A DNA stretch of 63,959 nucleotides, filler included, from Theionarchaea archaeon (GTDB lineage Archaea > Methanobacteriota_B > Thermococci > Methanofastidiosales > SZ-28-30): assembly GCA_018992565.1 (NCBI GenBank). It is 6 parts of 6 records of this genome, joined end to end, with 100 filler letters (N's around TTAATTAATTAA, not from the genome) between each part and the next. Parts side by side here need not be neighbours in the genome. Positions count along the whole stretch, not along the records: positions 7,285 to 37,040 come from JACVGW010000025.1; 5 more parts are not named here. One strand, given 5' to 3'. A model generated the notes under the pieces. The model had not been told where the DNA came from, did no database searches, and saw only the letters and a list, made by a program, of their open reading frames with translations. Shown one piece after another: positions 1 through 57,516 of this stretch (within the stretch, counting starts at the first letter, position 1; each line of letters begins with the position of its first letter). Position numbers and translations under genes: made by a program.

Positions 1-416
1 GGGTTGGTGTCATCAAATCGCAGAATGACAGTGCCATTATACCTCCTGGCATAGTAGTAGTTGAAGTAGAAAGACAGCCCGTGCCCAATGTGGGGCAACC
101 CGTTGGGTTCTGGAGGTAACCTGGTCACGACGTAATCTACATCGGGCAAAGGAGGCAGTTCCCTCTTTTCCTTGACCTCTTTTTCCTGAAAATACTCTGG
201 ATATATCTTGTTTAATTCCGCCTCTTGTTGCTGTTTATTCAACTGGTTAATCTTGGAGACTTCTTCCTGTATTAATTGCACGGTCTTTTTGGGATCTTTT
301 CGAAGTTCTTCACTCTCGCCCATGACTTTCCCCATGACAGCTTTGACAGATGCTGTTCCCTGGTATTCTAAAGCATTCATTAAGGTATATTTCCTGATAA
401 TGGTAAGGGGTTCCAT
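1..416 (-). CDS. gltX: Glutamyl-tRNA synthetase, N-terminal part (runs off window start)
   Basis: Manual translation: [20 protein letters not shown]...[16 protein letters not shown]...LRFDDTNP, with HIGH motif and archaeal N-terminal extension; absent from ORF track. Confidence 0.93.
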
Positions 417-24039: not shown

Positions 24040-24287
24040 TACCTGGATATATGCTCATGGGATATATCTTTATGTTTACTGCCCTTTTCGGCTCTGTACT
24101 GGCTCTGATTCAGCGGGACTTGATGAAATCAGTGATCCTGATTGGACTGGAAGGTCTTGCAGTTGCATTCCTCTTCCAGACATTGAGAGCTCCCGATGTG
24201 GGAATTACCCAGGCAATTCTTGGAGCCGCGCTGCTTCCTGGTATCTTTGCCATAACAGTCTACAAGACAAGGAGGGAGGAAGAATGA
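24036..24287 (+). CDS. ehbD: Ehb membrane subunit (DUF4040-like)
   Basis: RDLMKSVI...APDVGITQAILG. Confidence 0.75.
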   Translation: MIPGYMLMGYIFMFTALFGSVLALIQRDLMKSVILIGLEGLAVAFLFQTLRAPDVGITQAILGAALLPGIFAITVYKTRREEE

Positions 24288-24697
24288 GCCTGGAGACTCT
24301 GTTTCAACCCATGTGCTTTCTGACTGCTGCTGGACTGGTGGTAGTTGGACTGTACGCAGTGATTTTCATGGACAACCTGTTGAAGAAGATCATTGGAGTG
24401 ACCCTCATTTCAGACGGTGTCAACCTTGTCCTGATTACTGGAGGGTTCAACAAGATCGTGGCCATCATCTCTCCTGAACAGGCGGAGAACGGAGTGACAA
24501 GCGTCATATACGAAGGTCTCAAAGAGTATCCAGAGTTTGCAGCCCAGGCAGCGTATCCTCTGCCTTCTGCCCTGGTGCTCACCAGCATTGTTATCTCAGT
24601 GTCTATCTTTGCCATTATGCTGGCTATCGCTATTAAGCTCTACAACCACTACAACTCAATGAGCTGTTCTGTCATCTTCAAGGAGGTGGATGAATGA
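24284..24697 (+). CDS. ehbE: Ehb membrane subunit (MnhC-like)
   Basis: NLLKKIIG...GVNL...PLPSALVLTSIVI. Confidence 0.8.
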   Translation: MSLETLFQPMCFLTAAGLVVVGLYAVIFMDNLLKKIIGVTLISDGVNLVLITGGFNKIVAIISPEQAENGVTSVIYEGLKEYPEFAAQAAYPLPSALVLTSIVISVSIFAIMLAIAIKLYNHYNSMSCSVIFKEVDE

Positions 24698-26184
24698 ACC
24701 TTGATACTATCTTTGTCCCTGCACTACTGGTGGCATTTCCTCTGATTGCAGCCATCTGTCTCAATTTCCTGCACGGAAAGGATAGAGTAGTGAAAGCGGT
24801 TGCTATCATCTCCGTTGTGGTAGTCCTGGTGTTACCCTGGATAACCGATGCTGCAGTGTACTGGTTTGGAGGACATCCCCAGGTGGAGAATGTGACAGGA
24901 GGAACGAATATTGTCCTGTCAAAGCTCAACCTGGCCATTGTCTACAAGTACGCTGCCATACAGAAGCTGTTTATTGCAATCCTGGCTATTCTGGCATCTG
25001 CCGCTGTGTTGATTCACTTCACAGAACGTGTATCAGGCGTGTATGTAGCCATGATCATGCTGGGAGTAGCGTCAACATCTGCTGTCATCATGGCAGACGA
25101 TATATTCAACATCTTCGTCTTCCTGGAGATCCTCACCATATCTCAGGCAGCGCTGGTGATTGCCATCGGGAGTATTCAGGCGTATAAGACTGCCATCAAG
25201 TACCTGATCTTCGGAGGAATAGCAGGTTCTTCAATCCTTCTGGGGATAGCGATTCTCCTGAACAACTACGGTCTCCTGAATGTCAGTGACCTCAACAGGG
25301 CCATCACCCTGGATATTGAAGCAGGCATACCCCATGCTCTGATTGTCGCCTGCGCGTTGATCTTTGTGGGCTGGCTCTTTGAGTCCGGTATGGTCCCGTT
25401 CCACATCATCAAGTCAGATGTATACAGCAAAGCACGACCTTCTGTGGCAGCCTTCATGCAGACTCAGACAAAGTTCGTCCTGGTAGCCCTGTGGGTGGTC
25501 ATTCTTCGACTGTTCTACGGGATATCGACCTTCAATGCACTGGTTCTGGGTGTTGGTATTCTGTCCATGGTGTTTGGTGTGATGATGGCTCTCAAGCAGA
25601 CGGAAATCACCCGTCTCCTGGCATATGTGGCTGTTGCCCAGGCGGGACTGGTGGGAGTCGGTCTGGGAATTGGAACCAGAGCTGCAGTGACTGCGTCCAT
25701 CTTCCATGCAGTCAATGATGCTCTTGCCATGGCCATTTTATTCCTGTCAGTTTCAGTTGTCCTGCACATCACCCATACGGTGGATATGCGCAAGATGGGA
25801 GGGCTCCTGTGGAAAACAGGGTATGTCCCCTTTTTGTGCCTGCTGGGCATCTTTGCTGTCAGTGGTATGCCGCCCTTCAACACCTACCAGAGTGAATTCA
25901 GGATCATTACTGCAGCCTCTACAGCAGGATATCCTGAGCTCTCAGTGCTGATCATTCTCACAAGCATTGCGACCCTGGTGGCCCTGATGAAAGGGTTCTA
26001 CACCATCTATTTGAAGGAAGGTCAGGACTATCTCACAGACAAGGAACTGACACCTGTATCCTACTCCTGGGGAACTGAAGTATTCATGGTACTCCTCGTG
26101 GCCATATGCCTGGCAATTGGACTCACCCCACAGAACGTATTCCCCTATATCGAGCAATTTGTCCAGACCCTGGGGGTGATCTAG
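24694..26184 (+). CDS. ehbF: Ehb ion-translocating antiporter-like subunit (MnhD/NuoL-N family)
   Basis: DIFNIFVFLEI, KYLIFG, GMVPFH, SGMPPFN; many TMs. Confidence 0.85.
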   Translation: MNLDTIFVPALLVAFPLIAAICLNFLHGKDRVVKAVAIISVVVVLVLPWITDAAVYWFGGHPQVENVTGGTNIVLSKLNLAIVYKYAAIQKLFIAILAILASAAVLIHFTERVSGVYVAMIMLGVASTSAVIMADDIFNIFVFLEILTISQAALVIAIGSIQAYKTAIKYLIFGGIAGSSILLGIAILLNNYGLLNVSDLNRAITLDIEAGIPHALIVACALIFVGWLFESGMVPFHIIKSDVYSKARPSVAAFMQTQTKFVLVALWVVILRLFYGISTFNALVLGVGILSMVFGVMMALKQTEITRLLAYVAVAQAGLVGVGLGIGTRAAVTASIFHAVNDALAMAILFLSVSVVLHITHTVDMRKMGGLLWKTGYVPFLCLLGIFAVSGMPPFNTYQSEFRIITAASTAGYPELSVLIILTSIATLVALMKGFYTIYLKEGQDYLTDKELTPVSYSWGTEVFMVLLVAICLAIGLTPQNVFPYIEQFVQTLGVI

Positions 26185-26474
26185 TGTACGAGAAGTTCTT
26201 TGAAAAGCTGAAGCAGGGAGAGGATATTGCAGGTGCCTTCACTGCTGACTTCCAGATGGTTTTACTGATATCTCTGGGCGTGCTCCTGTTCTTTAGGTTG
26301 TTTACCACAGTACGGCTGGCCATCGTGGCATCATTTATTGCATTGTTACTGGTCATACGCGCAATACCACTGGTCTTCAGGGTATCGAAGGAACATTCTG
26401 ATACCTTTGACAGTATGCTGTTCTACTTTGCCCTGGCTATAGGCCTTGTTATCGTCCTACTGGGAGGGATCTAG
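26184..26474 (+). CDS. ehbG: Ehb small membrane subunit
   Basis: GTG start overlapping previous stop; hydrophobic; letter by gene order. Confidence 0.6.
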   Translation: MYEKFFEKLKQGEDIAGAFTADFQMVLLISLGVLLFFRLFTTVRLAIVASFIALLLVIRAIPLVFRVSKEHSDTFDSMLFYFALAIGLVIVLLGGI

Positions 26475-27224
26475 ATGAAGTTCAAAGAAGCCAACCAATA
26501 CCGAAACCTTGCAGCGCTGGCAGCGTTCCTCATCTTCTCTGGAGTAATTCTGCACACATTCTACACTCTGAAGGTCATACCTGGAATTTCATACCTCTAC
26601 AGCCTGATTGCACCGAACATAGCACCCAACGCAGTCACAACAATTGTCTTCGACTTTAGAGGATACGATACACTGGGAGAGACTCTGATTCTCATCACCT
26701 CTGTGATAACAGTCAGCGTGGTCTTTGGACGCGGAGCCTTCATTGAAGAGGAAAAGGCAGAACTCAAGCATGTTGTGCCCACCCCCATCCAATCAGTATT
26801 CGGTGCGCCTGTGATCCTGGTGCTCATGTGCTTTGGACTTCTCCTGATATTCGGAGGACATCTCACTCCAGGAGGAGGGTTCCAGGGTGGATCAGTGCTG
26901 GCAACAGCGTTCTTCATCTCCGTCGTGATCTACGGTGTCAGGAAGAACCCGTTCCACTACAGCCATGATTTCCTCATTGGTATGGAGACATTGGGTGCCC
27001 TCATCTTCCTGCTCCTGGGACTGGCAGGAGTGGCAGTATCAGGGTACTATCTGTACAATGTTGGGGCCAACATCTGGGGATACGGCCTTGTTGATTTCCT
27101 CAGGTACGCAGACCCCACCAATGCAGGAATAGTCCCGTACCTCAATGTGGCTGTTGGACTGGAGGTCTTTGGTTCTCTGAGCGTTGCAGCAGTCTTTCTT
27201 GCGGAGGCGAGAAAACATGATTGA
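26475..27224 (+). CDS. Ehb MnhB-like subunit, apparent EhbH-EhbI fusion
   Basis: PNAVTTIVFDFRGYDTLGE and GGHLTPGGGFQGG motifs in one chain. Confidence 0.8.
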   Translation: MKFKEANQYRNLAALAAFLIFSGVILHTFYTLKVIPGISYLYSLIAPNIAPNAVTTIVFDFRGYDTLGETLILITSVITVSVVFGRGAFIEEEKAELKHVVPTPIQSVFGAPVILVLMCFGLLLIFGGHLTPGGGFQGGSVLATAFFISVVIYGVRKNPFHYSHDFLIGMETLGALIFLLLGLAGVAVSGYYLYNVGANIWGYGLVDFLRYADPTNAGIVPYLNVAVGLEVFGSLSVAAVFLAEARKHD

Positions 27225-27483
27225 CTTCATTGGTGCAGTGGCAGCCTCTCTTGTCCTGGGATTCATCATTGGACTGAAAATCAGGCGACTTCCTGGAATC
27301 CTGTACGTTGTCCTGTTCCTGGTGATTCTGGTGCTGTCCTACTTCGTGGGTGACTACCCCTTCTACATCTTTCAGGTTGGAAAGGAATTGTTGCCCATAA
27401 ACGCTGTGCTCATTACCTCGTACCTGGGGATTGTACTGGGTTCTGTTCTACCTGGAGGAGGTGGTTCTGAATGCGAGGATTGA
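27217..27483 (+). CDS. ehbJ: Ehb small membrane subunit
   Basis: Hydrophobic, GDYPFY motif; letter by gene order. Confidence 0.6.
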   Translation: MIDFIGAVAASLVLGFIIGLKIRRLPGILYVVLFLVILVLSYFVGDYPFYIFQVGKELLPINAVLITSYLGIVLGSVLPGGGGSECED

Positions 27484-27878
27484 TTTCCATAGCTATTAGA
27501 GGTTCGTGGAAGAACCTGAAACGCATCCTCTTCCATTCAGAACGGGTGACCTCCATGGAGATGCGCTATAGAATTCTCTCAGGGCAGGTGACTCTGCCTA
27601 AAACGGTGAATGACCCCATGTGCATCGGGTGCGGTGCATGTGCCAGAATCTGCCCCACCAAAGCCATCACCATGATTGACCTTCCCGAACCCATTCATCT
27701 CACGGAGAAGTACACCAAAAAGCAGCGTCCAGAACTCGACCTGGAGAAGTGCTGCTTCTGTTTCAGATGTCACGACACGTGTCCCATATTCAAACGATAC
27801 AACAGGCCTTCGGCCATACATCCCCGAGAGGTGGGTGACTACTACGAGGATGTTTCAAAATTGCTAGGAGGTGGCTAA
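27471..27878 (+). CDS. ehbL: Ehb 2x[4Fe-4S] subunit
   Basis: [12 protein letters not shown] and [16 protein letters not shown] motif. Confidence 0.85.
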
Positions 27879-28329
27879 GATGTTCAAGGAAGTCTCGCGA
27901 AAAAATGCTGTACATGTCATGCTTGTGTACTCTGGTGGCTGCAATGGATGCGACATTGAAGTGGTCAACTGTGTTCTGTCCCCCTACTACGACATTGAGC
28001 AGTACAAGGTTATGCTCACCTGGAACCCCAGAGAAGCTGATATCCTGCTGGTGACGGGTCCTGTCCTGAAACGAATTGAACCAGCACTCAAGAAGATATA
28101 TGAATCAATTCCAGACCCCAAACTGGTGGCAGCTGTGGGTTCGTGTGCTATCAATGGCAACGTGTTCTTCAACCTGGGAGGGGACCTTGGACCGTCAGAG
28201 GAAGTTGCAGGCCCCCTGGACAAAGTGCTCCCGGTGGCAGCAAAGATACCGGGGTGTCCGCCCCGTCCTGAAGACATCATTTCAGCTGCAGCCTCTGCCA
28301 TTCCCATACTGGCAGAGATGGAGGTGTAA
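27871..28329 (+). CDS. ehbM: Ehb [NiFe] hydrogenase small subunit
   Basis: [35 protein letters not shown]. Confidence 0.9.
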
Positions 28330-28331
28330 CC

Positions 28332-29432
28332 ATGGAAAAAGACAGAGGAGAAGCTGATGTGGAAATTCCCGTTGGGTTAGTACACCCTGCCTTGCTGGAA
28401 CCCTACAGACCCCGCTTTTTCCTGCAGGATGAAGTGGTTACAGACTGTGAAATAACACTGGATGCTCAGCACAGAGGCATTGAGAGGATTATGGAAGGAA
28501 TACCGGTGGACAAGTGCAACATCATTACTGAGAGAATCTGCGGTATCTGCTCCTGTGTCCACCTGTGGAATTCAGTACGGGTGGTGGAAAAGGGGCTCAA
28601 CATTGAGGTGCCGGAAAGAGCTCAGTACATGAGAGTGATCATCAATGAACTGGAGCGGTTGACCTCCCACCTGATCTTCTTTGGACACGCTCTGGAGATC
28701 ATTGGTCATGAAACACTGGCCATGAGAGCCTTCATAGCCCGAGAACCCTTCATGATCATGCTGGGAGAGCTGTCTGGAAACAGGGTTCACTACGCCTGCC
28801 CCATTATCGGAGGGATCAGACCGCGGTGCAACCCCACAGATGACCTGTGCGCCAAGTCGCTGGCCCAGCTGCAGCCTGCAACAGAATACCTCAAAGACTA
28901 TGCAGACCGTATTCTGCAGGACGCCATGGTCATGTCCAGGATCGAGGGAGTTGGAGTCCTCACCAAGGAGGAGGCCATCAAGTACCATGCTGTTGGACCG
29001 ACTGCCCGTGCGTCTGGTGTGTCAAAGGACTGGAGAACAGACATTCCTGACTTCAAGCACTTCGACTGGGATGTTATCGTCCTGGATGACGGTGATGTGA
29101 AGACCAGGGTCGTACAGAGGGTCCTGGAATGCCTTGAGATGCTCAAGATTGTAGAACAGGGATTCAAGAACCTCCCCAAGGGTGAAGTGAGAACCACAGG
29201 CTGGAAACTGGGTAAAATGCCCATTACCACCTGTTACCATGAAGCACCCAGAGGGGAGCTCTATGACTCCTATGGCCTGGATGAAAAAGGAAATGTCAGA
29301 CATTACAAGTGCAGAACCCCCACAGTCACCAACTTAGGGGCCATGGAAGTGGCCTGTCTTGGAGAACATCTCACTGATGCAGTATTGACTCTGGCTTCGT
29401 GCGATCCTTGTCTGTGCTGTACCAACAGGTGA
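28332..29432 (+). CDS. ehbN: Ehb [NiFe] hydrogenase large subunit (group 4)
   Basis: L1 ERICGICS, L2 DPCLCCTNR at extreme C-terminus. Confidence 0.92.
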   Translation: MEKDRGEADVEIPVGLVHPALLEPYRPRFFLQDEVVTDCEITLDAQHRGIERIMEGIPVDKCNIITERICGICSCVHLWNSVRVVEKGLNIEVPERAQYMRVIINELERLTSHLIFFGHALEIIGHETLAMRAFIAREPFMIMLGELSGNRVHYACPIIGGIRPRCNPTDDLCAKSLAQLQPATEYLKDYADRILQDAMVMSRIEGVGVLTKEEAIKYHAVGPTARASGVSKDWRTDIPDFKHFDWDVIVLDDGDVKTRVVQRVLECLEMLKIVEQGFKNLPKGEVRTTGWKLGKMPITTCYHEAPRGELYDSYGLDEKGNVRHYKCRTPTVTNLGAMEVACLGEHLTDAVLTLASCDPCLCCTNR

Positions 29433-29436
29433 TATC

Positions 29437-30450
29437 ATGGACTATGTTAATTTCATCATTTCCACTGTGGTCCTGACCGTTGTAGCACTGTTCTTTGGCC
29501 CCGTCTTTCTGGGAATAGAACGGAAGATACAGGCCAGGATACAGCAGCGTATTGGTCCGCCTATTTTGACTCCAGGAACCTGGTCAATCCTCAAGTTCTG
29601 GAACAAGAAGCCCTTCACACCCAATTCGCCCATGCCTTCCTTGTATCATGCTCTGCCCCCTGTCACCATTGTTGTGGTGCTGGTTATCCTGTGGCTCACC
29701 AGCCCTGAGTGGTGGGGACTTCCCCTGTCCCTGGCCACACTGGTAGCCATTGTGGGCATCATGAAGTTCGAGGAAGTGATGTATGTTGTGATGGGTTCAT
29801 TGTCCAGGTCCATTCTGTCAGTGACCATGCCATATGGAGATGTGGTAAAAGGTGCAGTGACCAAGGCCACCATCAGGCGATTTTTCGAAGGACAGAGTGC
29901 AGTGAGGTTCATCAAGCACATCACCATTGCCTCATTCCCCATCTACATTGCGATCTTCATACCCGTTGTTATTGCGCGGAGCATCTTTGTGCAGGACGTC
30001 GTGTTATACCAGGGATCATTCCTGGATTTACACCCCATCCTGTTCACTGTCCCCGGATTCGTCGGTGCTATCGTGTACTTTGTGGGGTATGTAGCCCAGC
30101 TGAATGACTATCCATTCACCATTGCCAAGGCAAAGGGAGACCTCGTTGAAGGTGCACCTTTAGAGTACGGTGCACATGCCAGAGGGAACTACTACATACT
30201 GCGTGGCGTGTGGATGTTCGTGCTGTCAAGCCTGTTTGTGACGTTATTCTTTGGAATACCGCCTGTCGTGGACTTTTCCAGCATGGTGGGCGTGTCACAG
30301 CTGGTTATGCACGTGCTCCTGACCTTCATGCTGCCAGTTCTGGTATCAGTCCTGTCTGCCTTCGGCCCGATACTGACCTTCAAACAGCTGTATCCAGTGT
30401 CCTTTGGATTCACAGCCATCGGTGTGTTTGGGCTGTTACTGGCCCTGTAG
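29437..30450 (+). CDS. ehbO: Ehb NuoH-like membrane subunit
   Basis: GIERKIQARIQQRIGPP...PFTIAKAKGDLVEG. Confidence 0.88.
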   Translation: MDYVNFIISTVVLTVVALFFGPVFLGIERKIQARIQQRIGPPILTPGTWSILKFWNKKPFTPNSPMPSLYHALPPVTIVVVLVILWLTSPEWWGLPLSLATLVAIVGIMKFEEVMYVVMGSLSRSILSVTMPYGDVVKGAVTKATIRRFFEGQSAVRFIKHITIASFPIYIAIFIPVVIARSIFVQDVVLYQGSFLDLHPILFTVPGFVGAIVYFVGYVAQLNDYPFTIAKAKGDLVEGAPLEYGAHARGNYYILRGVWMFVLSSLFVTLFFGIPPVVDFSSMVGVSQLVMHVLLTFMLPVLVSVLSAFGPILTFKQLYPVSFGFTAIGVFGLLLAL

Positions 30451-30458: not shown

Positions 30459-30737
30459 GTGTGTAAATTCATCTTACCCTCAAAAAAGGTGCAGAATATG
30501 GGTGGGTACATTGTGGAGAACCACTCTGAGTTCCCCTTCAGGGACTTAATAGTGGGAAACCCTACCAATGAAAACGTCAAGCTACCTGTACCCATATACA
30601 CCATGGAAGAAGTAGAACAGATCAAGAACCTGGGTATCGTCACGTACGAGATGCAGGCTGGAGAATCCCTGGTGGAAGCGCTTCAGAAAGTGAAGGACAA
30701 GATTGGCAAGGAACCCAAGAGATCGAACTACTGGTAA
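30459..30737 (+). CDS. ehbP: Ehb subunit P
   Basis: GTG start after AGGTGA RBS; GGYIVE...FPFRDLIVGNPTNENVKLPVPIY resembles EhbP. Confidence 0.8.
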   Translation: MCKFILPSKKVQNMGGYIVENHSEFPFRDLIVGNPTNENVKLPVPIYTMEEVEQIKNLGIVTYEMQAGESLVEALQKVKDKIGKEPKRSNYW

Positions 30738-30961
30738 TTATTCTTCTTCTTTTTTTCTTTTAGCAGTATCAGGAACTGGACGTGAGGAGGGCCTTTTCTT
30801 CAGATCCTTTATAACAATGGTATTATGCCTACTGGACAATGTCGTGGAAGAGGAATTGCCTATATACTATTTTCCACGAATGTGAAAAAAAATCCAGGAT
30901 GCTCTCTCTCAGTGTACTAGAGTGCTACATATATGGGGCAATATTGTATTTTCTCGTAAAA

Positions 30962-30976
30962 CGAAAAGTTTATATA
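30962..30976 (+). promoter_or_regulatory. BRE-TATA promoter of radical SAM/precursor operon
   Basis: CGAAAAG-TTTATATA about 85 nt upstream of ATG 31060. Confidence 0.6.
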
Positions 30977-31059
30977 CCTAGAAAACACATACTTTTCAAA
31001 GTGGAACTTGAGATGTTGTATTGTTTTGACATAAAGCGAAATCTTAGGGAGATGAAGAG

Positions 31060-32484
31060 ATGACCGTGGAAGTGACCTCTATCGGCGATCATGTCAGTAT
31101 AGACGATGATGCCACTCATTTATTGTTCAATACAGCTGATTCAGGATTGTATAGAATAGAACTCATTACCAGAAAACTTTTGGTTCTCATACATGACTAT
31201 GGCATAGAAGCTGCTCGGTCACTCATAAAGGAAGACGATATTGAAAACGTGGCGGAAGAGAAACTTTCAGAACTTAAAGAGAACAAGTTCCTGGACCCAC
31301 TTCCAGAATTTGTTCCCCAGGAGACATCTCCCATCATGTTTGCGTCTCTCAACGTGTCTCATGACTGCAACCTCAACTGCCGCTACTGTTATGGAGGGGG
31401 CGGAACCTATGCAGGAGACCCCTGTCACATGAGTACGGACGTGGGAGAACTGGCTGTTGATCGGCTCTTCGAGTGGTGTGATGATAGCGAACTTCTGGGT
31501 ATCAATTTCTTTGGAGGAGAACCCCTCCTGAACGTGAAATTGATACAGCATCTGGTGTCCTATGCAACTGAAAGAGCACATGCTGAAGAGAAAAAAGTGC
31601 GATTCAGCATGACATCCAATGGCACTCTTTTCACTGACGAGATAGTCGCGTTCCTCAAGGAGAGTAATATAGGAGTGCTGGTGAGCATGGATGGGCCAAA
31701 GCACGTCCAGGATGTCAACCGCCCCTTCAGAAATGGTAAGGGGTCATATGATGTCATTGCAGACCGACTTCAATCCCTCCTGGCTGTCAGGCCTCACCTG
31801 ACTGCCCGTGCAACCCTGACCAAAGATTGTATGTCTCTCAGTACGCTGGTTGATGGGCTCAGAGACGTGGGGTTCACCTATGTACATGTAGAGCCTTTGA
31901 CTCCTTATGAGAACTGCCCATTTGCACTTTCTGAGGAGGATTTTGAAACCCTCAAGGATGAATATGATAAGCTCGGGCATATATTCCTGGAAAATATCCT
32001 GAATGGGACCCCCTTTGGATTCTCAAATATTCTGAGGACCCTGAGTGCTATATACACCTCCGGGGTTCGTCACTATCCATGCGGTGCAGGGAAGAACCTC
32101 ATGGCAGTTGATCCCATGGGTGGAATCTATATATGCCACCGGTTTGTGGGAATGGAAGACTTCTCCATGGGTACCCTGAACGATCCCGATTTTTCTATTC
32201 AAAAGAGACTCCTCCAGGCCCATGTAGATGCGCGAGATGAGTGCAGGAACTGCTGGGCCAGGCACTTATGTGCAGGGAGTTGCTGGTACGATAATTATGT
32301 GTACAGTGGTGCTATTGACAGACCACACAGCCCGAGATGCAGTCTTTTCAAGCATATTGCTGCACTTTCCATGGTTATATTTTCAAAATTACATGAAAAA
32401 GATAAGGCATTACTGGATAAGATGTTCCGGAAGCATGAACCGTCATACAGACGTGGTGAATTTCCGGAGGATGAGAGAACGTGA
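31060..32484 (+). CDS. Radical SAM/SPASM peptide maturase (thioether-forming type)
   Basis: CNLNCRYC, FFGGEPLL, SPASM CGAG...YICHRF...CRNCWARHLCAGSC...C; about 90-aa N-terminal extension (possible RRE). Confidence 0.9.
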   Translation: MTVEVTSIGDHVSIDDDATHLLFNTADSGLYRIELITRKLLVLIHDYGIEAARSLIKEDDIENVAEEKLSELKENKFLDPLPEFVPQETSPIMFASLNVSHDCNLNCRYCYGGGGTYAGDPCHMSTDVGELAVDRLFEWCDDSELLGINFFGGEPLLNVKLIQHLVSYATERAHAEEKKVRFSMTSNGTLFTDEIVAFLKESNIGVLVSMDGPKHVQDVNRPFRNGKGSYDVIADRLQSLLAVRPHLTARATLTKDCMSLSTLVDGLRDVGFTYVHVEPLTPYENCPFALSEEDFETLKDEYDKLGHIFLENILNGTPFGFSNILRTLSAIYTSGVRHYPCGAGKNLMAVDPMGGIYICHRFVGMEDFSMGTLNDPDFSIQKRLLQAHVDARDECRNCWARHLCAGSCWYDNYVYSGAIDRPHSPRCSLFKHIAALSMVIFSKLHEKDKALLDKMFRKHEPSYRRGEFPEDERT

Positions 32485-32497
32485 AGGAGGTGATACC

Positions 32498-32635
32498 ACG
32501 ATACGATTAAATGGAACAAGTGAGCCCCAGCCACCCACGTGCCCGGATGACTACATATGTCCATGGGTTGATATCTGCACTATTGACTTCGACCCCTGTG
32601 CATTTATTGACATCTGCGGAATTGACTACCACTAG
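32498..32635 (+). CDS. Cys/Asp-rich RiPP precursor A1: (M)IRLNGTSEPQPPTCPDDYICPWVDICTIDFDPCAFIDICGIDYH
   Basis: AGGAGGTGA RBS 32485-32493 then ACG; 45 codons; five Cys each followed by Asp at +3 or +4. Confidence 0.85.
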   Translation, partial: TIRLNGTSEPQPPTCPDDYICPWVDICTIDFDPCAFIDICGIDYH

Positions 32636-32650
32636 ACTATTTTTTTTCTT
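32636..32650 (+). terminator. Oligo-T terminator-like tract after precursor A1 (similar tract at 33124-33149)
   Basis: ACTATTTTTTTTCTT immediately after stop codon. Confidence 0.4.
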
Positions 32651-32686
32651 GAATAGTACACAAGGTACAGAGAGGGAGGTGATATG

Positions 32687-32803
32687 ATGATACGATTGAA
32701 TGAAGGAGTGGAAGAAGGAGGCATACATATCTGCCTGATAGACTACGTGCACTGCGATAATATTGATATCTGCATAGTCAAAGACTATGCTGCGCTTGGC
32801 TAG
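32687..32803 (+). CDS. Cys/Asp-rich RiPP precursor B: MIRLNEGVEEGGIHICLIDYVHCDNIDICIVKDYAALG
   Basis: GGAGGTGA RBS, ATG, same MIRLN leader, CLID/CDNID/CIVKD motifs. Confidence 0.85.
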   Translation: MIRLNEGVEEGGIHICLIDYVHCDNIDICIVKDYAALG

Positions 32804-32985
32804 GATTGATCCATGATGTGGCGATCCATCCAGTCAGCACGCGAGGCATGGTATGTCTGGCGAATCCCCGGGTGCTCTTGAACAGGGGTACCGGGAATCA
32901 CGGGATCCAGTGAAGGTCACTTTTATTTTCTTGAACATGCGAATCCTACAGAAACCAGGACGAGAAAATTGAAGGAGGTGATATC

Positions 32986-33123
32986 ACGATACGCTTAAAC
33001 GGAACAAGTGAACCCCAGCCACCCACGTGCCCAGATGACTACATATGTCCATGGGTTGATATCTGCACTATTGACTTCGACCCCTGTGCATTTATTGACA
33101 TCTGTGGAATTGACTACCACTAG
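32986..33123 (+). CDS. Cys/Asp-rich RiPP precursor A2 (peptide identical to A1)
   Basis: AGGAGGTGA RBS then ACG; five nucleotide differences from A1, all synonymous. Confidence 0.85.
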   Translation, partial: TIRLNGTSEPQPPTCPDDYICPWVDICTIDFDPCAFIDICGIDYH

Positions 33124-33324
33124 ACAATTTCTTTTCATTTTTATTTTTTNNNNNNNNNNNNNNNNNNNNNNNNNNNNNNNNNNNNNNNNNNNNNNNNNNN
33201 NNNNNNNNNNNNNNNNNNNNNNNNNNNNNNNNNNNNNNNNNNNNNNNNNGATCTTGAGCTACCCAAAAGTATTTAAGTTCTTGTTCACATGGGAGCGTAC
33301 AAACTCCTCAAGGAGGTGAAAGAA

Positions 33325-35978
33325 TTGAAAGGTAGAGAAGTGACAATACTAGCATTGATACTGATGCTTTGTATGAGCATTCCCGCAGCTTTTTCTGAGA
33401 ACGACAATTTCGGTGTAGACTACAAGTTCACACCTGTCCTGACAGGTGGCATGTGTAGCGGATGTGGTACCTACTTGATTGAGGATACCCAGATCTATTC
33501 TGCTCCAGGAGAACCTCTGGTTCCCTACAGAACTGCCTCGATTCTGTTGCCACAGGGTGCAGAGTTGAAAGATGTCAAGGTTAAGCATGGCAAGCCCATT
33601 GTTATGAAGGGCTATGACCTGCCGTGGGGTCAACCCCCCTGCACATTCAGCGATACCCCAGTAACAGTTGGCAGAAATGAAGAGACGTACAATTCCAACA
33701 GTTTGTACCCCCAGACACTCTTTAAGGTGGTTGGTGTTGAATCTTTCAGAGGATACAGCATTCTGAACCTGCTCCTGTTCCCTGTGCAGTACCAGCCAAA
33801 GTCTGGCACGGTCCACTTCTATCAGAAGTTGACTGTTGAGGTCCAGTTTGGCAAGGGTATGAAGAACAAGCTGTACAGAGGATTGGAGGAAGACAAGGCA
33901 GCTGTTGCTGATATTGTAGATAACATTGACACATTGAATACCTATGAGAGTGGACCAACACCTCTGGCAACTGAAGAATACATCATCATCACCAACGACA
34001 CGCTGGAGTCTACATTCCAGAGTCTGGCAACCTGGAAGGCAGGCTTCGTTGACGGAGCTTCAGTGTATACCGTGTCCTGGATCTCATCAAACTACACTGG
34101 TACTGACACCCAGATGAAGATTCGTAACTTCATCATTGACAAGTACACCAACAATGGTACGCTGTATGTCTTACTTGGTGGTGATACTGGCGTTGTCCCC
34201 TACAGAGGATTCTACGTCAGCACAGGTGGATATACTGACAGCGACATGGCAGCAGACATGTATTATGCTCACCTGGATGGCAGTCACAACTCAGATGGTG
34301 ACTCCCGGTATGGTGAGACTAATGATGGTGTCGACTTCTATGCAGAGGTTGCAGTCGGCCGTGCACCTGTGGACAACACAACAGAAGCCCAGTCGTTCGT
34401 CAACAAGGTCATCGCCTATGAGCAGATGGACAAGCCAGAGAGAGTCTGCCTGCATGAGTCTCGCGTGGGCAGTAACAACAGTCCTGATGCCCGATGCCTG
34501 GCATACAACTGTGATAACTACATCCCCACTGGGTATACCATCGACTACCTGTTCGAAGAAGATGGTAATGTCTCAAAGGCTGACTGGAGAGCAGCATGGG
34601 CAGCTGGTCCTATTGCCGTCGTCCACATTGGACACGGGAACACGACTGTCTACTACATCAACTATGAAGTGGGCGGTACTGTGAGCTGGTATACCACAGA
34701 TGTATCCAGTTTGACCAACACGTTCTACCCATGGACAACCAGTGTGGCCTGTATCTGTGGTGAATTTGAGGCTTCTGACTGTCTGTCTGAATACTACGTC
34801 AAGGATGACTGTGGAGCTATTGGTGCCATCTACAACGACAACTACGGCTGGTTCATGACGACTGATGCCTGTGCATTGAGTGGTGAATTCTGTGAGATGG
34901 AAGTCAGAGCATGCTGGAGCGATGGTTACGAGAAGCTGGGTGACATTCTGAACAGGTCACGATACTACATGGCATCCTCAGCTCAGAGTGATACCTACTA
35001 CAGGTGGTGCTTCTATGAGAGAAACCTCATGGGTGATCCAGAAACCCCCTGTCTGACCAAGAGAGGAGAACAGCATACAGTGACCATCACCAACCCAGCC
35101 GATGGATCAACTGTCTCTGGAACTGTCAGCGTTACCACAAGCACCAACTGCGATGAAGTGAAGTTCTACATCGATGGTNNNNNNNNNNNNNNNNNNNNNN
35201 NNNNNNNNNNNNNNNNNNNNNNNNNNNNNNNNNNNNNNNNNNNNNNNNNNNNNNNNNNNNNNNNNNNNNNNNNNNNNNCTGGGACACCACTGGATACTCC
35301 AACGGCAGCCACACCATCATGGTTGAGGGATACGTGTCTGGTACGTTACAGGACACTGACTCTGTTACTGTCACAGTCAACAATGTCAGTTACTATGTGA
35401 CCATCACCAACCCAGCCGATGGATCAACTGTCTCTGGAACTGTCAGCGTTACCACAAGCACCAACTGCGATGAAGTGAAGTTCTACATCGATGGTACGTT
35501 AGTGAAGGATGATACATCATCACCCTTTGACTACACCTGGGACACCACTGGATACTCCAACGGCAGCCACACCATCATGGTTGAGGGATACGTGTCTGGT
35601 ACGTTACAGGACACTGACTCTGTTACTGTCACAGTGCAGAACCTCGCGTACTACCTTACCATCACCAACCCCTCAGAGGGTGAAGTTGTATCCGGTACTG
35701 TTACAGTAACGACGGATACCAACTGCAGTGAGGTACGGTTCTACATTGATGGTTCGCTTGTAGGAACTGACACTACAGCACCCTTCCAGTACAGCTGGAA
35801 CACCGAGAACTATTCTGACGGTAACCACACTGTAAGGGCTGATGGATACGTGTCAGGTACAATGGAAGCCCAGGACACAGTCACCTGTGAAGTTGACAAT
35901 GGTGGAGAGTGTCTCGGAACTACGCTCGTTTCCTTGCTGGTATTGTTTGGATCTGCAGCATTGTATAGAAGACGCTAA
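33325..35978 (+). CDS. Secreted C25 (gingipain-like) cysteine peptidase with propeptide, Ig-like repeats and C-terminal anchor (spans a gap)
   Basis: TTG start after AGGAGGTGA; signal peptide; YVLLGGD, DMYYA, VAVGRAPV, GHG and SVAC catalytic motifs, NLMGDP; TM+RRR tail. Confidence 0.88.
35080..35636 (+). repeat. Tandem 258-nt (86-aa) Ig-like domain repeat
   Basis: 35080-35178 matches 35397-35495 and 35279-35377 matches 35537-35635; a third diverged unit follows. Confidence 0.85.
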
Positions 35979-39492: not shown

Positions 39493-40924
39493 ATGAGATC
39501 GAAGGAGGAGAAGCGAAAGATCGCAGAAAACGCCCCCCAGAGTCTCGGAGCCCTGGGGCAGGACACAGNNNNNNNNNNNNNNNNNNNNNNNNNNNNNNNN
39601 NNNNNNNNNNNNNNNNNNNNNNNNNNNNNNNNNNNNNNNNNNNNNNNNNNNNNNNNNNNNNNNNNNNNAGATGGGAATGAAAAGAAGTATCATGAGATCG
39701 AAGGAGGAGAAGCGAAAGATCGCAGAAAACGCCCCCCAGAGTCTCGGAGCCCTGGGGCAGGACACAGCCAAAAAGATTCTGAGAGGAGCCTTAGAAGATG
39801 CAGATTTCTTCAAGACGTGTCCCCCACTCTTTGTGGGCTGGGAGCTTACCCATGCATGCAACCTGAAATGCCGCCATTGTTACAACGCAGCAGGAAAACC
39901 CGAACCTGATGAACTCACCACAGAAGAGGGATATGCACTTCTTGAACATCTGGCAGACATTGGAACCGTTGGTATGCTCATAGGAGGTGGTGAACCTCTC
40001 CTGAGAAAAGAAGCGTTTGAATGGATTGACTTTGCCACAGAGCACGGGATGAATATTACTATTAACACCAATGGTACTCTCATAGACGCAGGAATTGCTC
40101 AACAGATGAAGGATTCAGGCATCGTCAATACCCAGATCAGTATTGATGGGTTATTCGACATTCATGACGCAATAAGGGGAGTTCCTGGAGCATTTGAGCG
40201 TGCTGCAGAAGCCATCTGGAATCTCTTTGAAGTGGAGATGCCTGTCACTGTAATCACAACGGTGATGCGAAGCAATTACCAGAACATGGGCGATCTCATA
40301 GATTGGCTTCGGGAAGAGTACGGTGGAAAGGTGAACCAGATGTTCTGCCGCGTGAAAATGGTGGGTCGTGCAATGGAGACAGGTGAAATGCTCACGGGCA
40401 AAGAGTATCTGGAGGCCTGCCATGAAATTGCAGACAACTATGGATTTAGTGGAATGTGGAGCTGTATTCCGTATCCCTATTTGATTGATCTCAGGAAGAC
40501 CGGTGATTTCATACGCGGTGTGGTTAAGACACCTCTGGGAGAACGGCTGTACCCTGAAAAGATACGCAGCAGGTTGTTGGGAGAAGAGAATGCGGCAGAG
40601 GTCGTCATGGGTGCTGTGGGTGGAAACTGTAAGGCAGGCACCTACATGGTGAATATTGGCCCCCAGGGGAATGTCTATGCATGCGTTGAGCTGCCTGTAC
40701 TGGCGGGAAATATCAGGGACGCCCCTCTGATAGATATCTGGTATGGGGCCAAGCTATTCAACGATTTGAGAGAAAAAAAGGAGAGAATAGGGGGGAAGTG
40801 CCAGACCTGTTCGTACAAGGAATTCTGTGGAGGAGGATGCAGGGCTGATGCCTACAATTTCTATGGAGACTATCTTGCACCAGATCCCATGTGTATTCCT
40901 CCAGGAGGATGGTATCATGAATAA
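39493..40924 (+). CDS. Radical SAM/SPASM enzyme (PqqE/MftC/Ahb-like); 5' end duplicated across gap
   Basis: WELTHACNLKCRHC, GGGEPLL, CKAG...VYAC...CQTCSYKEFCGGGCRA...DPMC. Confidence 0.88.
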
Positions 40925-41792
40925 AATAGTAGCGTTACTTGGGTTTTACAGAATCCACAGAGTGCTCTTCAACCTGATTTTTTCAGCAATCATCATTGTA
41001 ATCCTTGCCCGAGGAATCCCCGACCTCATTTACCTGGTCATGGGGCCACTATTGTTTGCCCTTGGCCTGTTTAGCGTGGTGGGTGTCAACAATATTAAGG
41101 ATGTGGTGGCAGATCGTATCTCTAAGAAAGGGGATATGCAGTCCTTTAACCCTCTGGCCACCAATGTTTTTACCGTTTCGCAAGCGTGGGCAGCTGCCCT
41201 CACTCCCCTTGTACTGGGGATTGTGTTGGCCTTCTTCCTTAATACAGAAACTTTCATCTTCTTTCTGTTATTTATTGCATTTTCACTCTTCTATGATTTG
41301 TACGGCAAGAAAATCGTCATGGCACCCTTTATCTCGCCTGCGTGTCTAGCATTCTTTATTGTTCTCCTGGGGTTCATGATGAATAGGGAGAGTGATCCCG
41401 TTCTGCCCTACTTGGTCATGATCTTCTACATTTTTATGGTGGTGGGTCAAATTGGCCTGGATATCCTGGACTACGAGGGAGACAAAGCAGCAGGGTATGC
41501 CAGGCTCACCGTTGTATACGGACCAGTGACGGGAGCACGCCTTGCTATTGCTCTCTCTGCTGCTATGCCCCTGCTTACCCTCCTTGCTTACATCCATATT
41601 GGGTTCTGGTGGGTGTCCCTCCCGATAATCGGGATTGCTCTGCTACAGGTCATTCCTGTGGCCCAAAAGTACAACCTGTATGCCAAGGACATTACCGCTC
41701 TCAATGCGAAAGCGGCTCTTTCTGGATTGATGCTCCAGTACCTGGTTATTATGGTTGCATTTGTGGTGGGGTTACGCATCATAGGTGGATAA
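40917..41792 (+). CDS. UbiA-family prenyltransferase
   Basis: NNIKDVVADRISK and DILDYEGDKAAG Asp-rich motifs; multiple TMs. Confidence 0.82.
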   Translation: MNKIVALLGFYRIHRVLFNLIFSAIIIVILARGIPDLIYLVMGPLLFALGLFSVVGVNNIKDVVADRISKKGDMQSFNPLATNVFTVSQAWAAALTPLVLGIVLAFFLNTETFIFFLLFIAFSLFYDLYGKKIVMAPFISPACLAFFIVLLGFMMNRESDPVLPYLVMIFYIFMVVGQIGLDILDYEGDKAAGYARLTVVYGPVTGARLAIALSAAMPLLTLLAYIHIGFWWVSLPIIGIALLQVIPVAQKYNLYAKDITALNAKAALSGLMLQYLVIMVAFVVGLRIIGG

Positions 41793-51461: not shown

Positions 51462-51564
51462 NNNNNNNNNNNNNNNNNNNNNNNNNNNNNNNNNNNNNNN
51501 NNNNNTTAATTAATTAANNNNNNNNNNNNNNNNNNNNNNNNNNNNNNNNNNNNNNNNNNNNGGG

Positions 51565-51660
51565 TCACGGGTTGGGTCTGTCAGGACATTCGATAAACCT
51601 GGGCATGCACTCAGTGGGGCGGTATAACCCAGATCCGACCAGTGGTTTTTCCCATTTCAT
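51565..51660 (-). CDS. Short peptide MKWEKPLVGSGLYRPTECMPRFIECPDRPNP, candidate RiPP precursor
   Basis: AGGAGGTGA RBS before ATG; WxxP leader-like motif; two Cys; lies in radical SAM island. Confidence 0.6.
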   Translation of the reverse strand: MKWEKPLVGSGLYRPTECMPRFIECPDRPNP

Positions 51661-57498: not shown

Positions 57499-57516
57499 AG
57501 TATACTGCACCTGGAA

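What the first reader, a model, noticed from the sequence alone, without database searches (positions are those of the whole stretch)
31060..33149. Candidate archaeal ranthipeptide system: SPASM maturase plus three hidden Cys/Asp precursors
Seen: immediately after the radical SAM/SPASM gene are three small ORFs, each with a GGAGGTGATA RBS and a shared (M)IRLN leader. Every Cys is followed by Asp at +3 or +4: CPDD, CPWVD, CTID, CAFID, CGID in the 45-aa peptide (two copies) and CLID, CDNID, CIVKD in the 38-aa peptide. None is correctly called in the ORF track. Known: PapB-type SPASM enzymes form Cys-to-Asp thioethers on CX3D motifs (freyrasin), and QhpD makes Cys-Asp/Glu links. Inference: a polycyclic thioether RiPP family with alternating CX2D/CX3D rings; I know of no described archaeal example. 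The gap right after copy 3 may hide more precursors.
Basis: partly seen in the sequence, partly recalled or inferred. Interest (0 to 1): 0.9.

Follow-up and report, generated by a model that had tools for sequence, protein, structure and literature searches.

The report
Archaeal thioether-peptide gene cluster, ACG starts
An uncultured sediment archaeon carries a radical-SAM enzyme followed by three tiny cysteine/aspartate-rich peptide genes that most likely give a multi-ring thioether peptide of a known kind, and two of the three genes have ACG where the start codon should be.

Summary
Window 31060-32484 encodes a 474-aa radical SAM/SPASM enzyme. Three small genes follow it, each behind a 9-nt GGAGGTGAT site that is the exact complement of this genome's own 16S rRNA 3' end. 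All 13 of their Cys have Asp at +3 or +4.

The enzyme belongs to the ranthipeptide-maturase superfamily. It scores about 295-309 bits on the nif11-rSAM, QhpD, PapB and SCIFF models, below every curated cut-off, and only 97 bits on sulfatase maturase. With 13 full-length relatives it forms its own clade.

The peptides are a conserved family with an invariant R-L-N leader motif. In 15 members, 64 of 68 Cys have Asp/Glu at +3/+4. They sit beside an intact orthologous enzyme in L014. In the 34 genomes of the order they occur only in this genome.

Most likely product: peptides with 3-5 adjacent Cys-to-Asp thioether rings, made PapB-style. This is inferred, not shown.

- Copies 1 and 3 have ACG, not ATG, at the start position, as do both L014 peptides.
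- Copy 2 and an N-extended copy 1 already exist in public protein sets.
- An archaeal ranthionine-forming enzyme (CrpC, 2026) and predicted archaeal ranthipeptide clusters are in print.

Verdict: a new member of a known kind, with an unusual conserved ACG start.

The parts
30962..30976 (+). Possible archaeal promoter: a purine-rich BRE-like stretch plus TTTATATA, about 85 nt upstream of the enzyme's ATG
   Evidence: Read directly. The archaeal BRE/TATA consensus is recalled, not tested.
31060..32484 (+). Radical SAM/SPASM peptide maturase, 474 aa, an unnamed clade of the ranthipeptide-maturase superfamily
   Evidence: NCBIfam: nif11-rSAM 309, QhpD 297, PapB 296, SCIFF maturase 295 bits, all below their cut-offs; sulfatase maturase 97 bits. 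Pfam Radical_SAM and Fer4_12. CteB E 2e-63.
31060..31314 (+). N-terminal domain (about residues 1-85), probably the leader-binding RRE
   Evidence: The AF2 model has pLDDT 76-88 here, with four strands then three helices. Only CteB and TigE alignments reach into it; model 9..325 aligns to CteB 2..329 at Z 13.9. Pfam gave no PqqD/RRE hit.
31366..31389 (+). CX3CX2C motif (Cys103, Cys107, Cys110) for the SAM-binding 4Fe-4S cluster
   Evidence: Invariant in 14 of 14 aligned orthologues. Aligned to the same motif of CteB.
32080..32340 (+). SPASM region with seven Cys (341, 359, 395, 398, 404, 408, 427) for two auxiliary clusters
   Evidence: All seven are invariant in 14 of 14 orthologues and aligned to Cys of CteB. 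The Pfam SPASM model itself scores only 14.7 bits, below its 21.5 cut-off.
32486..32494 (+). Shine-Dalgarno site GGAGGTGAT of copy 1
   Evidence: It is the complement of the genome's own 16S 3' end.
32498..32635 (+). Precursor copy 1, 45 codons from ACG, with five Cys-x2/3-Asp motifs. An alternative in-frame ATG lies at 32471.
   Evidence: P0150 is the public 54-aa call from ATG 32471. Contigs of runs X5 and X9 cover the ACG with no differences listed.
32640..32647 (+). T8 run after copy 1, a possible archaeal terminator or pause site
   Evidence: Read. The function is inferred.
32675..32683 (+). Shine-Dalgarno site GGAGGTGAT of copy 2
32687..32803 (+). Precursor copy 2, 38 aa (39 aa from the first ATG at 32684), with three Cys-x2/3-Asp motifs and GG before the core
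   Evidence: Its relatives are P0126, P0127 and P0133.
32974..32982 (+). Shine-Dalgarno site GGAGGTGAT of copy 3
32986..33123 (+). Precursor copy 3, 45 codons from ACG, the same peptide as copy 1. There is no canonical in-frame start after the stop at 32932-32934.
   Evidence: Contigs of runs X1, X5 and X9 cover the ACG.
33150..33249 (.). Scaffold gap of 100 N, with unknown content
   Evidence: In one search, contigs of other runs continue for up to 255 unlike letters behind 33149 and 214 before 33250, and no contig bridges the gap.
33289..35400 (+). Peptidase C25 gene with a signal-like N-terminus (N run inside). It is a neighbour and is not shown to belong to the system.
   Evidence: Pfam Peptidase_C25 154.7 bits. 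The genome has 12 C25 genes. Only this one shares a contig with an rSAM/SPASM-motif ORF. It is absent from L014.

Best explanation
This is a ranthipeptide-type RiPP system of an uncultured archaeon of the class Thermococci in the GTDB sense (Methanofastidiosia/Theionarchaea-like). The three small genes encode precursors with a very short leader: Met, one variable residue, then Arg-Leu-Asn and about 6-9 spacer residues. The core is made of back-to-back Cys-x2-Asp and Cys-x3-Asp units.

Proposed steps, all inferred:
1. The enzyme's N-terminal RRE-like domain binds the R-L-N leader.
2. The core is threaded into the radical SAM active site.
3. A substrate Cys thiolate binds the open iron of auxiliary cluster I.
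4. The 5'-deoxyadenosyl radical removes a hydrogen from a side-chain carbon of the Asp (or Glu) three or four residues downstream.
5. An S-C thioether (ranthionine) forms, with loss of 2 Da per ring.

Repeating this gives five adjacent small rings in the 45-aa peptide and three in the 38-aa peptide.

Translation of copies 1 and 3 most likely starts at ACG. A 9-bp pairing to the 16S 3' end probably helps initiation there.

Shown here: gene structure, enzyme family placement, conservation of the peptide family and its motif, and co-occurrence of enzyme and peptides. Inferred: binding, the chemistry, the carbon attacked, ACG initiation, and the biological role. The role is unknown; signalling or antagonism are guesses.
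For: **Enzyme.**
- It has the CX3CX2C motif plus seven SPASM Cys, all invariant in 14 of 14 orthologues.
- It scores 295-309 bits on the four thioether-maturase models (nif11-rSAM, QhpD, PapB, SCIFF), against 97 bits on sulfatase maturase and 85 bits on the CrpC family TIGR04463.
- CteB is the top hit by sequence, Foldseek and VIA.
- Four of CteB's six catalytic-proximity residues are identical here: F151, T185, S209 and H360. The other two are Y111 and R361, and both are conserved in the clade. This maps the residue list in PMC10288494 onto the alignment. The A2 alignment is and the profile counts are.

**Peptides.**
- 64 of 68 Cys in 15 members have Asp/Glu at +3/+4.
- R, L and N of the leader are invariant.
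[quoted passage not shown] PapB accepts spacings of 0-6 residues and does not process the reversed Asp...Cys order. A conserved leader Asn has been proposed to be needed for RRE binding (PMC9413430, abstract and passages).

**Linkage of enzyme and peptides.**
- L014 holds an enzyme 62% identical, followed at once by two peptides of the family and then ABC transporter genes.
- Seven pairs of enzyme and peptide records share a contig length. Six are other metagenome contigs. The seventh pairs the window's own enzyme (P0001) with P0150.
- In the 34 genomes of the order, peptides are found only in G000, the one genome with the intact enzyme.

**Selection.** The 5 of 5 differences between copies 1 and 3 are synonymous.

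**Start codon.**
- ACG sits exactly where copy 2 has its second ATG, 7 nt after GGAGG. This holds in 4 of the 5 family genes whose DNA I could read.
- Two of those four have no canonical in-frame start.
- Contigs from other runs show the same letters.
Against: - No chemistry, expression or binding data exist.
- The enzyme is below the curated cut-off of every named family. The Pfam SPASM model is below its threshold.
- No RRE was found by sequence. The AF2 model is poor overall, with mean pLDDT 59.9.
- Neighbourhood was seen directly in only one other intact locus (L014). The other co-occurrences rest on equal contig lengths.
- No protease or exporter can be tied to the cluster in this window.
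- ACG is a weak initiator in studied systems (recalled). Copy 1 has an alternative upstream ATG. Copies 1 and 3 could therefore be poorly expressed or not expressed.
- The acceptor carbon cannot be told from sequence. GggB and QmpB, which resemble ranthisynthases, make alpha-carbon links (PMC10288494 passage).
Confidence: 0.7

Rival explanations
1. The same enzyme-precursor pair makes a different cross-link: alpha-carbon thioethers (a sactipeptide), or another radical modification of the Cys/Asp core.
For: Sequence alone cannot fix the carbon attacked. GggB and QmpB look like ranthisynthases but make sactionines (PMC10288494 passage). The enzyme reaches no family cut-off.
Against: An acidic residue is conserved at +3/+4 of 64 of 68 Cys. 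That points to recognition of a side chain, as in PapB and QhpD. The best-scoring families are all non-alpha thioether maturases. The catalytic-proximity profile is close to CteB's.
Confidence: 0.12
2. Only copy 2 (ATG) is a working precursor. Copies 1 and 3, and both L014 peptides, are silenced by loss of the start codon (ATG to ACG) and are on their way to decay.
For: ACG is not a standard start. Many relatives in protein sets begin with Met. No RNA holder or protein data exist.
Against: All 5 differences between copies 1 and 3 are synonymous. Both L014 paralogues, which differ widely from each other, keep full Cys-Asp/Glu patterns and the perfect RBS with ACG at the same spacing. L014 would then have no working precursor beside an intact enzyme.
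Confidence: 0.13
3. The small peptides are not substrates of the enzyme. They are free metal-binding or Fe-S-binding Cys/Asp peptides, or non-coding repeats, and the enzyme acts on something else.
For: Cys/Asp-rich peptides can bind metals. The genome holds 51 ORFs with rSAM plus SPASM-like motifs, so lying next to one of them is not rare in itself.
Against: Neither is found alone in the 34 genomes of the order, except that G004 keeps a truncated enzyme with no peptides. The leader-plus-core layout and the invariant leader Asn are RiPP-like.
Confidence: 0.05

Closest known systems
PapB / PapA (freyrasin) of Paenibacillus polymyxa, NCBIfam NF047865
   Same: Both are radical SAM/SPASM maturases with a precursor made of repeated Cys-Xn-Asp/Glu units. 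The Cys comes before the acid, and the leader has a conserved Asn (PMC9413430). The PapB model covers enzyme residues 96-422 at 296 bits.
   Different: The score is below the 340-bit cut-off. The rings here would alternate x2 and x3 spacing and lie directly adjacent (D-I-C). The leader is only about 12-14 residues. The host is an archaeon, and ACG sits at the start position in some genes.
QhpD / QhpC (quinohemoprotein amine dehydrogenase maturation), TIGR03906
   Same: The model aligns almost end to end, residues 12-456, at 297 bits. It is the best-scoring model for the orthologue P0013, at 313 bits.
   Different: The score is below the 453-bit cut-off. The substrates here are 38-45-aa free peptides, not an enzyme subunit. 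None of the neighbouring genes scanned with Pfam was a dehydrogenase of that kind.
CteB / SCIFF peptides (thermocellin), TIGR03974, PDB 5WGG/5WHY
   Same: It is the closest solved structure (E 2e-63; Foldseek E 5e-19; VIA Z 13.9). The domain order is the same: N-terminal domain, rSAM core, SPASM.
   Different: The score of 295 bits is below the 425-bit cut-off. The peptides gave no NCBIfam match at E 0.1, which leaves them outside the SCIFF peptide model if the library holds one. The catalytic-proximity pattern is Y..HR against F..HQ in 93 of 120 listed homologues. In the quick tree the 14 archaeal enzymes and the 38 SCIFF-type enzymes sit on opposite sides of branches with 100% support.
CrpC / CrpA of Methanococcus voltae, TIGR04463 (PMC13692751)
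   Same: It is an archaeal SPASM radical SAM enzyme shown to install ranthionine links. One of its modified motifs is Cys-x-x-Asp (CAVD).
   Different: It is a different enzyme family (85 bits against a 525-bit cut-off). Its substrate is a 28.8-kDa repeat protein with a 47-residue N-terminal recognition region, not a 38-45-aa peptide.

Membership tests
Ranthipeptide biosynthetic system (class level) | Radical SAM enzyme with CX3CX2C and a SPASM domain carrying seven Cys | tested here: met
   Cys103/107/110 and Cys341/359/395/398/404/408/427 are invariant in 14 of 14 orthologues and aligned to those of CteB.
Ranthipeptide biosynthetic system (class level) | Enzyme groups with the QhpD/PapB/SCIFF-type thioether maturases, not with sulfatase maturases or other SPASM enzymes | tested here: met
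   295-309 bits on the four models, against 97 bits (sulfatase maturase) and 64 bits (mycofactocin). CteB is the top hit in the PDB.
Ranthipeptide biosynthetic system (class level) | Leader-binding RRE domain in or beside the enzyme | tested here: inconclusive
   The N-terminal 85 residues fold as strands plus three helices with pLDDT 76-88 and align with the N-terminal part of CteB. Pfam found no RRE. The complex prediction could not be run.
Ranthipeptide biosynthetic system (class level) | Cys-rich precursor peptide encoded next to the enzyme and conserved with it | tested here: met
   Three precursors in the window, two in L014, and matching contig lengths for six more metagenome contigs. 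Within the order, peptides occur only where the intact enzyme is.
Ranthipeptide biosynthetic system (class level) | Thioether from Cys sulfur to a non-alpha carbon of the acceptor | not testable with these tools
   This needs mass spectrometry and NMR of the modified peptide.
PapB family (NF047865) | Score at or above the curated cut-off of 340 bits | tested here: not met
   296.4 bits. The orthologue P0013 scores 286.5.
PapB family (NF047865) | Precursor with repeated Cys-X3-Asp/Glu motifs | tested here: inconclusive
   The motifs are present, but they alternate with Cys-X2-Asp. In the 45-aa peptide two of five are X3; in the 38-aa peptide two of three are X3.
QhpD (TIGR03906) | Score at or above 453 bits, and a quinohemoprotein amine dehydrogenase gene context | tested here: not met
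   297 bits. The scanned neighbours are hydrogenase, peptidase C25, Big_7 and RHS genes.
SCIFF system (TIGR03974 maturase) | Maturase at or above 425 bits, and a SCIFF-type precursor | tested here: not met
   294.6 bits. The three peptides match no NCBIfam model at E 0.1.
nif11-like peptide rSAM maturase (TIGR04064) | Score at or above 518.7 bits, and a Nif11-type leader | tested here: not met
   309.2 bits. The peptides have no Pfam or NCBIfam match. Their leader is about 12-14 residues.
Anaerobic sulfatase maturase (TIGR03942) | Score at or above 349 bits | tested here: not met
   97 bits. anSME E 1e-10 against CteB 2e-63.
CrpC family (TIGR04463) | Score at or above 525 bits | tested here: not met
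   84.9 bits.

The most novel reading that the evidence does not exclude
In these archaea ACG is a selected, working initiation codon for RiPP precursor genes. Either initiator tRNA reads it directly, with a maximal 9-bp Shine-Dalgarno pairing making up for the mismatch, or it is changed to AUG in the RNA. The peptides it launches would be a new, very compact 'ladder' type of ranthipeptide: adjacent 4- and 5-residue Cys-Asp rings behind a leader of about a dozen residues.
Probability: 0.4. Interest if true: 0.65.

Novelty: new member of a known kind. Interest (0 to 1): 0.5.

Why it matters
- It gives a defined enzyme clade and a precursor family for small ranthipeptide-type products in an uncultured archaeal lineage. 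I found no archaeal small-peptide product of this class in print. The nearest case, CrpC, modifies a 28.8-kDa protein.
- The short leader and tightly packed Cys-x2/3-Asp rings would make a compact scaffold. They would also provide a natural test of how small a ring such enzymes make.
- The ACG at the start position explains why gene callers miss or mis-start these genes. If ACG works as a start codon here, that bears on start-codon rules in archaea and on how RiPP precursors are mined.

Tried and rejected
- **Complex prediction of enzyme plus peptide.** The calls were 45, 53, 56, 59, 61, 64, 66, 68, 71, 72, 75, 77, 80, 83, 84, 85, 87, 89, 91, 93, 95, 99, 101, 104 and 106. The job never ran, so leader binding is untested.
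- **RNA evidence.** No RNA holder was listed among 22 runs. Expression and C-to-U change at ACG could not be examined.
- **Locus searches.** The single-protein scan of metagenome contigs found no relative. The genome-contig scan gave only L013. The profile scan kept 80 loci; only L014 is an orthologue, and the other 79 are 29-39% identical.
- **Longer peptide forms.** The search for longer or mis-started forms (106-2000 aa) found none.
- **P0129.** This 1988-aa hit to the peptide profile is a tandem-repeat translation without the motif layout. I dropped it.
- **Structured RNA.** Rfam found no match in 30700-33300. The 146-nt spacer after copy 2 folds no better than shuffles, z -0.43.
- **C25 peptidase as the leader protease.** Rejected as unsupported. 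The genome has 12 C25 genes, and only this one shares a contig with an rSAM/SPASM-motif ORF. It is absent from L014.
- **RRE by sequence.** Pfam on the N-terminal 95 residues gave no RRE hit.
- **Tree.** The careful search did not finish in two 300-s runs. Only the quick tree is reported.
- **Literature on ACG initiation in archaea.** Searches returned nothing relevant. What I say about ACG efficiency is recalled.
- **PapB and QhpD residues.** The main text of PMC10288494 does not give their residues at the six catalytic-proximity positions. Its supplementary figures, which I did not open, may hold them.
Full report
**What is there.**

Window 31060-32484 (+) is an open frame of 474 aa. Three small genes follow on the same strand:
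- Copy 1: 32498-32635.
- Copy 2: 32684 or 32687 to 32803.
- Copy 3: 32986-33123.

Each is preceded by GGAGGTGAT. That 9-mer is the exact complement of the 3' end of this genome's own 16S rRNA. It occurs only 60 times in the 2.8-Mb assembly.

Copies 1 and 3 encode the same 45 codons, TIRLNGTSEPQPPTCPDDYICPWVDICTIDFDPCAFIDICGIDYH as translated. Copy 2 encodes MIRLNEGVEEGGIHICLIDYVHCDNIDICIVKDYAALG. All 13 Cys have Asp at +3 or +4. A tblastn of the peptides against the whole assembly finds only these three loci; every other hit has E of 0.07 or worse.

Copies 1 and 3 differ at five bases, all third-position and synonymous. Random placement of five changes gives that result with a probability of 0.0003-0.001. 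The similarity between the two copies ends just upstream of the ribosome-binding site and just after the stop codon. The frame is therefore under selection as a coding sequence.

**The enzyme.**

Pfam finds Radical_SAM and Fer4_12. The SPASM model is below its threshold, at 14.7 against 21.5 bits. NCBIfam scores are as follows:

| Model | Bits | Curated cut-off |
|---|---|---|
| nif11-like peptide rSAM maturase | 309 | 518.7 |
| QhpD | 297 | 453 |
| PapB | 296 | 340 |
| SCIFF maturase | 295 | 425 |
| Anaerobic sulfatase maturase | 97 | about 349 |
| CrpC family TIGR04463 | 85 | 525 |

The enzyme therefore belongs to the thioether-maturase superfamily but to none of its named families.

The closest solved structure is CteB at E 2e-63; anSME is at 1e-10. 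The CX3CX2C motif and the seven SPASM Cys are invariant in 14 of 14 aligned orthologues and line up with those of CteB.

CteB has six catalytic-proximity residues: F112, F152, T186, S210, H363 and Q364 (PMC10288494, passages). Through the alignment they map to Y111, F151, T185, S209, H360 and R361 here. Four of six are identical.

For positions 1, 2, 5 and 6, the 120 listed homologues split as follows:

| Profile | Count |
|---|---|
| FFHQ (the CteB type) | 93 |
| YFHR | 19 |
| FFHR (P0008, one of the 14 aligned orthologues) | 1 |
| FFPR | 1 |
| Incomplete | 6 |

Of the 14 aligned orthologues, 13 are YFHR and P0008 is FFHR. An Arg next to the active site would suit a carboxylate acceptor, but that is my speculation. 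I could not read PapB's or QhpD's residues at these positions.

A quick maximum-likelihood tree covered 59 of the 120 homologues: rows 1-14, 20-60, 73, 84, 95 and 111. The fragments P0015-P0019 were left out. It puts the 14 archaeal enzymes in one group (SH-aLRT 100, stem length 1.04). That group is separate from the 38 SCIFF-type rows (SH-aLRT 100). The careful search did not finish.

The AF2 model is poor overall (mean pLDDT 59.9). Residues 1-80 have pLDDT 76-88 and form four strands followed by three helices. Only the CteB and TigE alignments extend into this domain: model 9..325 aligns to CteB 2..329 at Z 13.9 and rmsd 16.7 over 295 residues. anSME aligns only from residue 91. This fits a leader-binding RRE, but Pfam finds none by sequence.

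**The peptides are a family that travels with this enzyme clade.**

- In the big protein set, 18 of the 120 listed homologues are 55-83% identical to the enzyme (P0002-P0019). The next best is 39%.
- One orthologous locus could be read as DNA. In L014 the enzyme is 62% identical. It is followed at once by two small genes with the same ribosome-binding site and an E-R-L-N leader. Their cores are rich in Cys-x2/3-Asp/Glu. An ABC ATPase and two membrane proteins follow.
- Profile searches with the peptides found further members of 37-60 aa, most beginning M-x-R-L-N.
- In an alignment of 15 members, R, L and N of the leader are invariant.
- 64 of 68 Cys have Asp or Glu at +3/+4. The four exceptions have Asn at +4 (twice), Asp at +5, or nothing. 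None of 2000 shuffles reached 64; the mean was 20.5 and the maximum 32. Related sequences are not independent, so this shows conservation, not a probability.
- Seven pairs of enzyme and peptide records share the same longest-contig length: 126747 (the window's own enzyme P0001 with P0150), 66006, 13843, 8467, 44963, 51579 and 12094. That suggests the same contigs but does not prove it. The 13843 set has two 47-aa peptides and one 37-aa peptide, the same make-up as the window.
- Among the 34 genomes of the order, the enzyme is found at E of 1e-90 or better in 2: G000 and G004. Among the 133 genomes of the class it is also found in 2. The peptide profile hits 1 of 34, G000 only.
- G004 holds a relic. 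Enzyme residues 1 to about 356 run in frame, at P-C-G-A-G-K, into the Walker-A region of an ABC ATPase. The result is one 616-aa ORF without the SPASM part and without peptides. This fits the gene order enzyme, peptides, ABC transporter seen in L014.

**The start codon.**

In copy 2 the second ATG lies 7 nt after GGAGG. Copies 1 and 3, and both L014 genes, have ACG at exactly that place. That is 4 of the 5 family genes whose DNA I could read.

- Copy 3 has no ATG, GTG or TTG between the in-frame stop at 32932-32934 and the ACG.
- The first L014 gene has none after its in-frame stop either.
- Copy 1 has an in-frame ATG at 32471, used in a public annotation (P0150, 54 aa). A GGAGG abuts that ATG with no spacer, and copy 3 does not share the extra residues.
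- The second L014 gene has a GTG nine codons upstream (P0121).

In the whole genome, GGAGGTGAT-N3-ACG occurs only at these two genes.

Contigs from other public runs carry the same letters. X5 and X9 cover the copy 1 start. X1, X5 and X9 cover the copy 3 start. No differences are listed anywhere in 32300-33149. One X1 contig does carry a single unlisted difference somewhere in 32608-33063. An assembly error is therefore unlikely.

Most relatives in protein sets begin with Met. The family thus uses ATG in some lineages and ACG in at least two. The synonymous-only divergence of copies 1 and 3, and the intact motifs of the two L014 paralogues, argue that ACG genes are still translated. Direct initiation at ACG helped by the 9-bp pairing is my preferred reading. 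It is an inference. No RNA run was available to test expression or editing.

**Surroundings.**

- Upstream (24284-30450) are genes of a membrane-bound hydrogenase/Mrp-type complex.
- A TTTATATA box with a purine-rich stretch lies at 30962-30976 (the consensus is recalled).
- T-rich runs follow copies 1 and 3.
- After copy 3 comes a 100-N gap. Contigs of other runs continue for up to 255 unlike letters behind 33149 and 214 before 33250, and none bridges the gap. At least about 470 bases are unseen there, and more precursors or other genes cannot be excluded.
- The next gene is a secreted-looking peptidase C25. I do not count it as part of the system. The genome has 12 such genes, only this one shares a contig with an rSAM/SPASM-motif ORF, and L014 has none.

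**How it most likely works.**

The comparison is with PapB. [quoted passage not shown] Its leader Asn has been proposed to be needed for RRE binding (PMC9413430, abstract and passages). The comparison is also with CteB and CrpC, where a substrate Cys is thought to bind the open iron of auxiliary cluster I (PMC13692751, section 14).

I propose that the N-terminal domain holds the R-L-N leader. The enzyme then makes one thioether per Cys to the Asp three or four residues downstream. That gives five adjacent rings in the 45-aa peptide and three in the 38-aa peptide. All of this is inferred. Leader removal, export and function are unknown here. L014 suggests export by an ABC transporter.

**Comparison and novelty.**

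The system works like PapB/freyrasin and QhpD/QhpC but is a member of neither family, because their cut-offs are not met.

Archaeal precedent exists:
- CrpC of Methanococcus voltae installs ranthionine links, one of them at a Cys-x-x-Asp motif (CAVD), on a 28.8-kDa protein (PMC13692751; abstract and sections 8, 12 and 14 read).
- A genome-mining survey lists ranthipeptide clusters among predicted archaeal RiPPs (PMC12144867, passage).
- A 2026 study calls ranthipeptides 'only recently reported in archaea' and reports expression in an Alkanophagales genome (PMC13635244, passages).

My searches turned up no description of this peptide family, of this enzyme clade, or of a characterised small archaeal ranthipeptide. 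The library lacks most subscription journals, and I opened no supplements.

I rate it a new member of a known kind. The conserved ACG at the start position is the one feature a specialist might not expect.

**Limits.**

- There is no expression, binding or chemical evidence.
- Only one intact orthologous locus was seen as DNA.
- The structure model is weak.
- The complex prediction could not be run.

Noticed in passing
L013 4001-5851 (= G004:C2, also L002): This is a relic of the same system. The orthologous enzyme (55-57% identical over residues 3-358) runs in frame, at P-C-G-A-G-K, into the Walker-A region of an ABC ATPase, giving one 616-aa ORF (P0019). The SPASM domain and any precursor genes are missing. 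It looks like a deletion between two similar G-A-G-K stretches.
   Followed up: partly
whole genome G000 (and G001, G002 of the same genus): The genome is very rich in radical SAM/SPASM enzymes. 51 ORFs of at least 300 aa carry CX3CX2C followed by CX2CX5CX3C in 2.8 Mb. The protein search listed 40 matches each in G000, G001 and G002, against 1-4 (one genome 0) in the 37 other genomes whose rows are listed.
   Followed up: partly
window 39671-41792, 50344-61924 (beyond contig C86): A second RiPP-like region follows. It holds a SPASM rSAM next to a UbiA prenyltransferase (39671-41792) and a partial peptidase C25 (50344-51513). A 31-aa ORF sits behind GGAGGTGAT on the minus strand (51660-51565, MKWEKPLVGSGLYRPTECMPRFIECPDRPNP). 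Four radical SAM genes, one with a B12-binding domain, lie at 51914-57510, and a TldD/PmbA pair at 59153-61924.
   Followed up: no
G000:C105, about 100 nt after the ORF at 4058-5423: Another small Cys-containing ORF lies behind a GGAGG site, just downstream of a different rSAM/SPASM-motif gene. It starts at GTG and is 54 aa. It may be another precursor.
   Followed up: no
proteins P0149 and P0127 (contig length 51579): Both peptides of this contig begin M-R-L-N. They lack the usual first residue, as if the gene caller had started at the second codon. The first codon there may also be non-canonical. The DNA could not be fetched.
   Followed up: no
G000, 12 places: The genome has twelve peptidase C25 genes. 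Seven lie within about 450 bases of a contig end, perhaps because shared repeat domains break the assembly.
   Followed up: partly
window 24284-30450: A membrane-bound NiFe hydrogenase/Mrp-like gene set lies directly upstream of the cluster on the same strand. It includes NuoK-, NuoL/M-, MnhB-, ferredoxin-, NuoB-, NuoD/NiFe- and NuoH-like genes.
   Followed up: no
window 32853-32972: A 39-aa ATG ORF lies in the spacer between copies 2 and 3 and ends 14 nt before the ACG of copy 3. There is no evidence that it is a gene. If translated, termination there could feed re-initiation at ACG.
   Followed up: no
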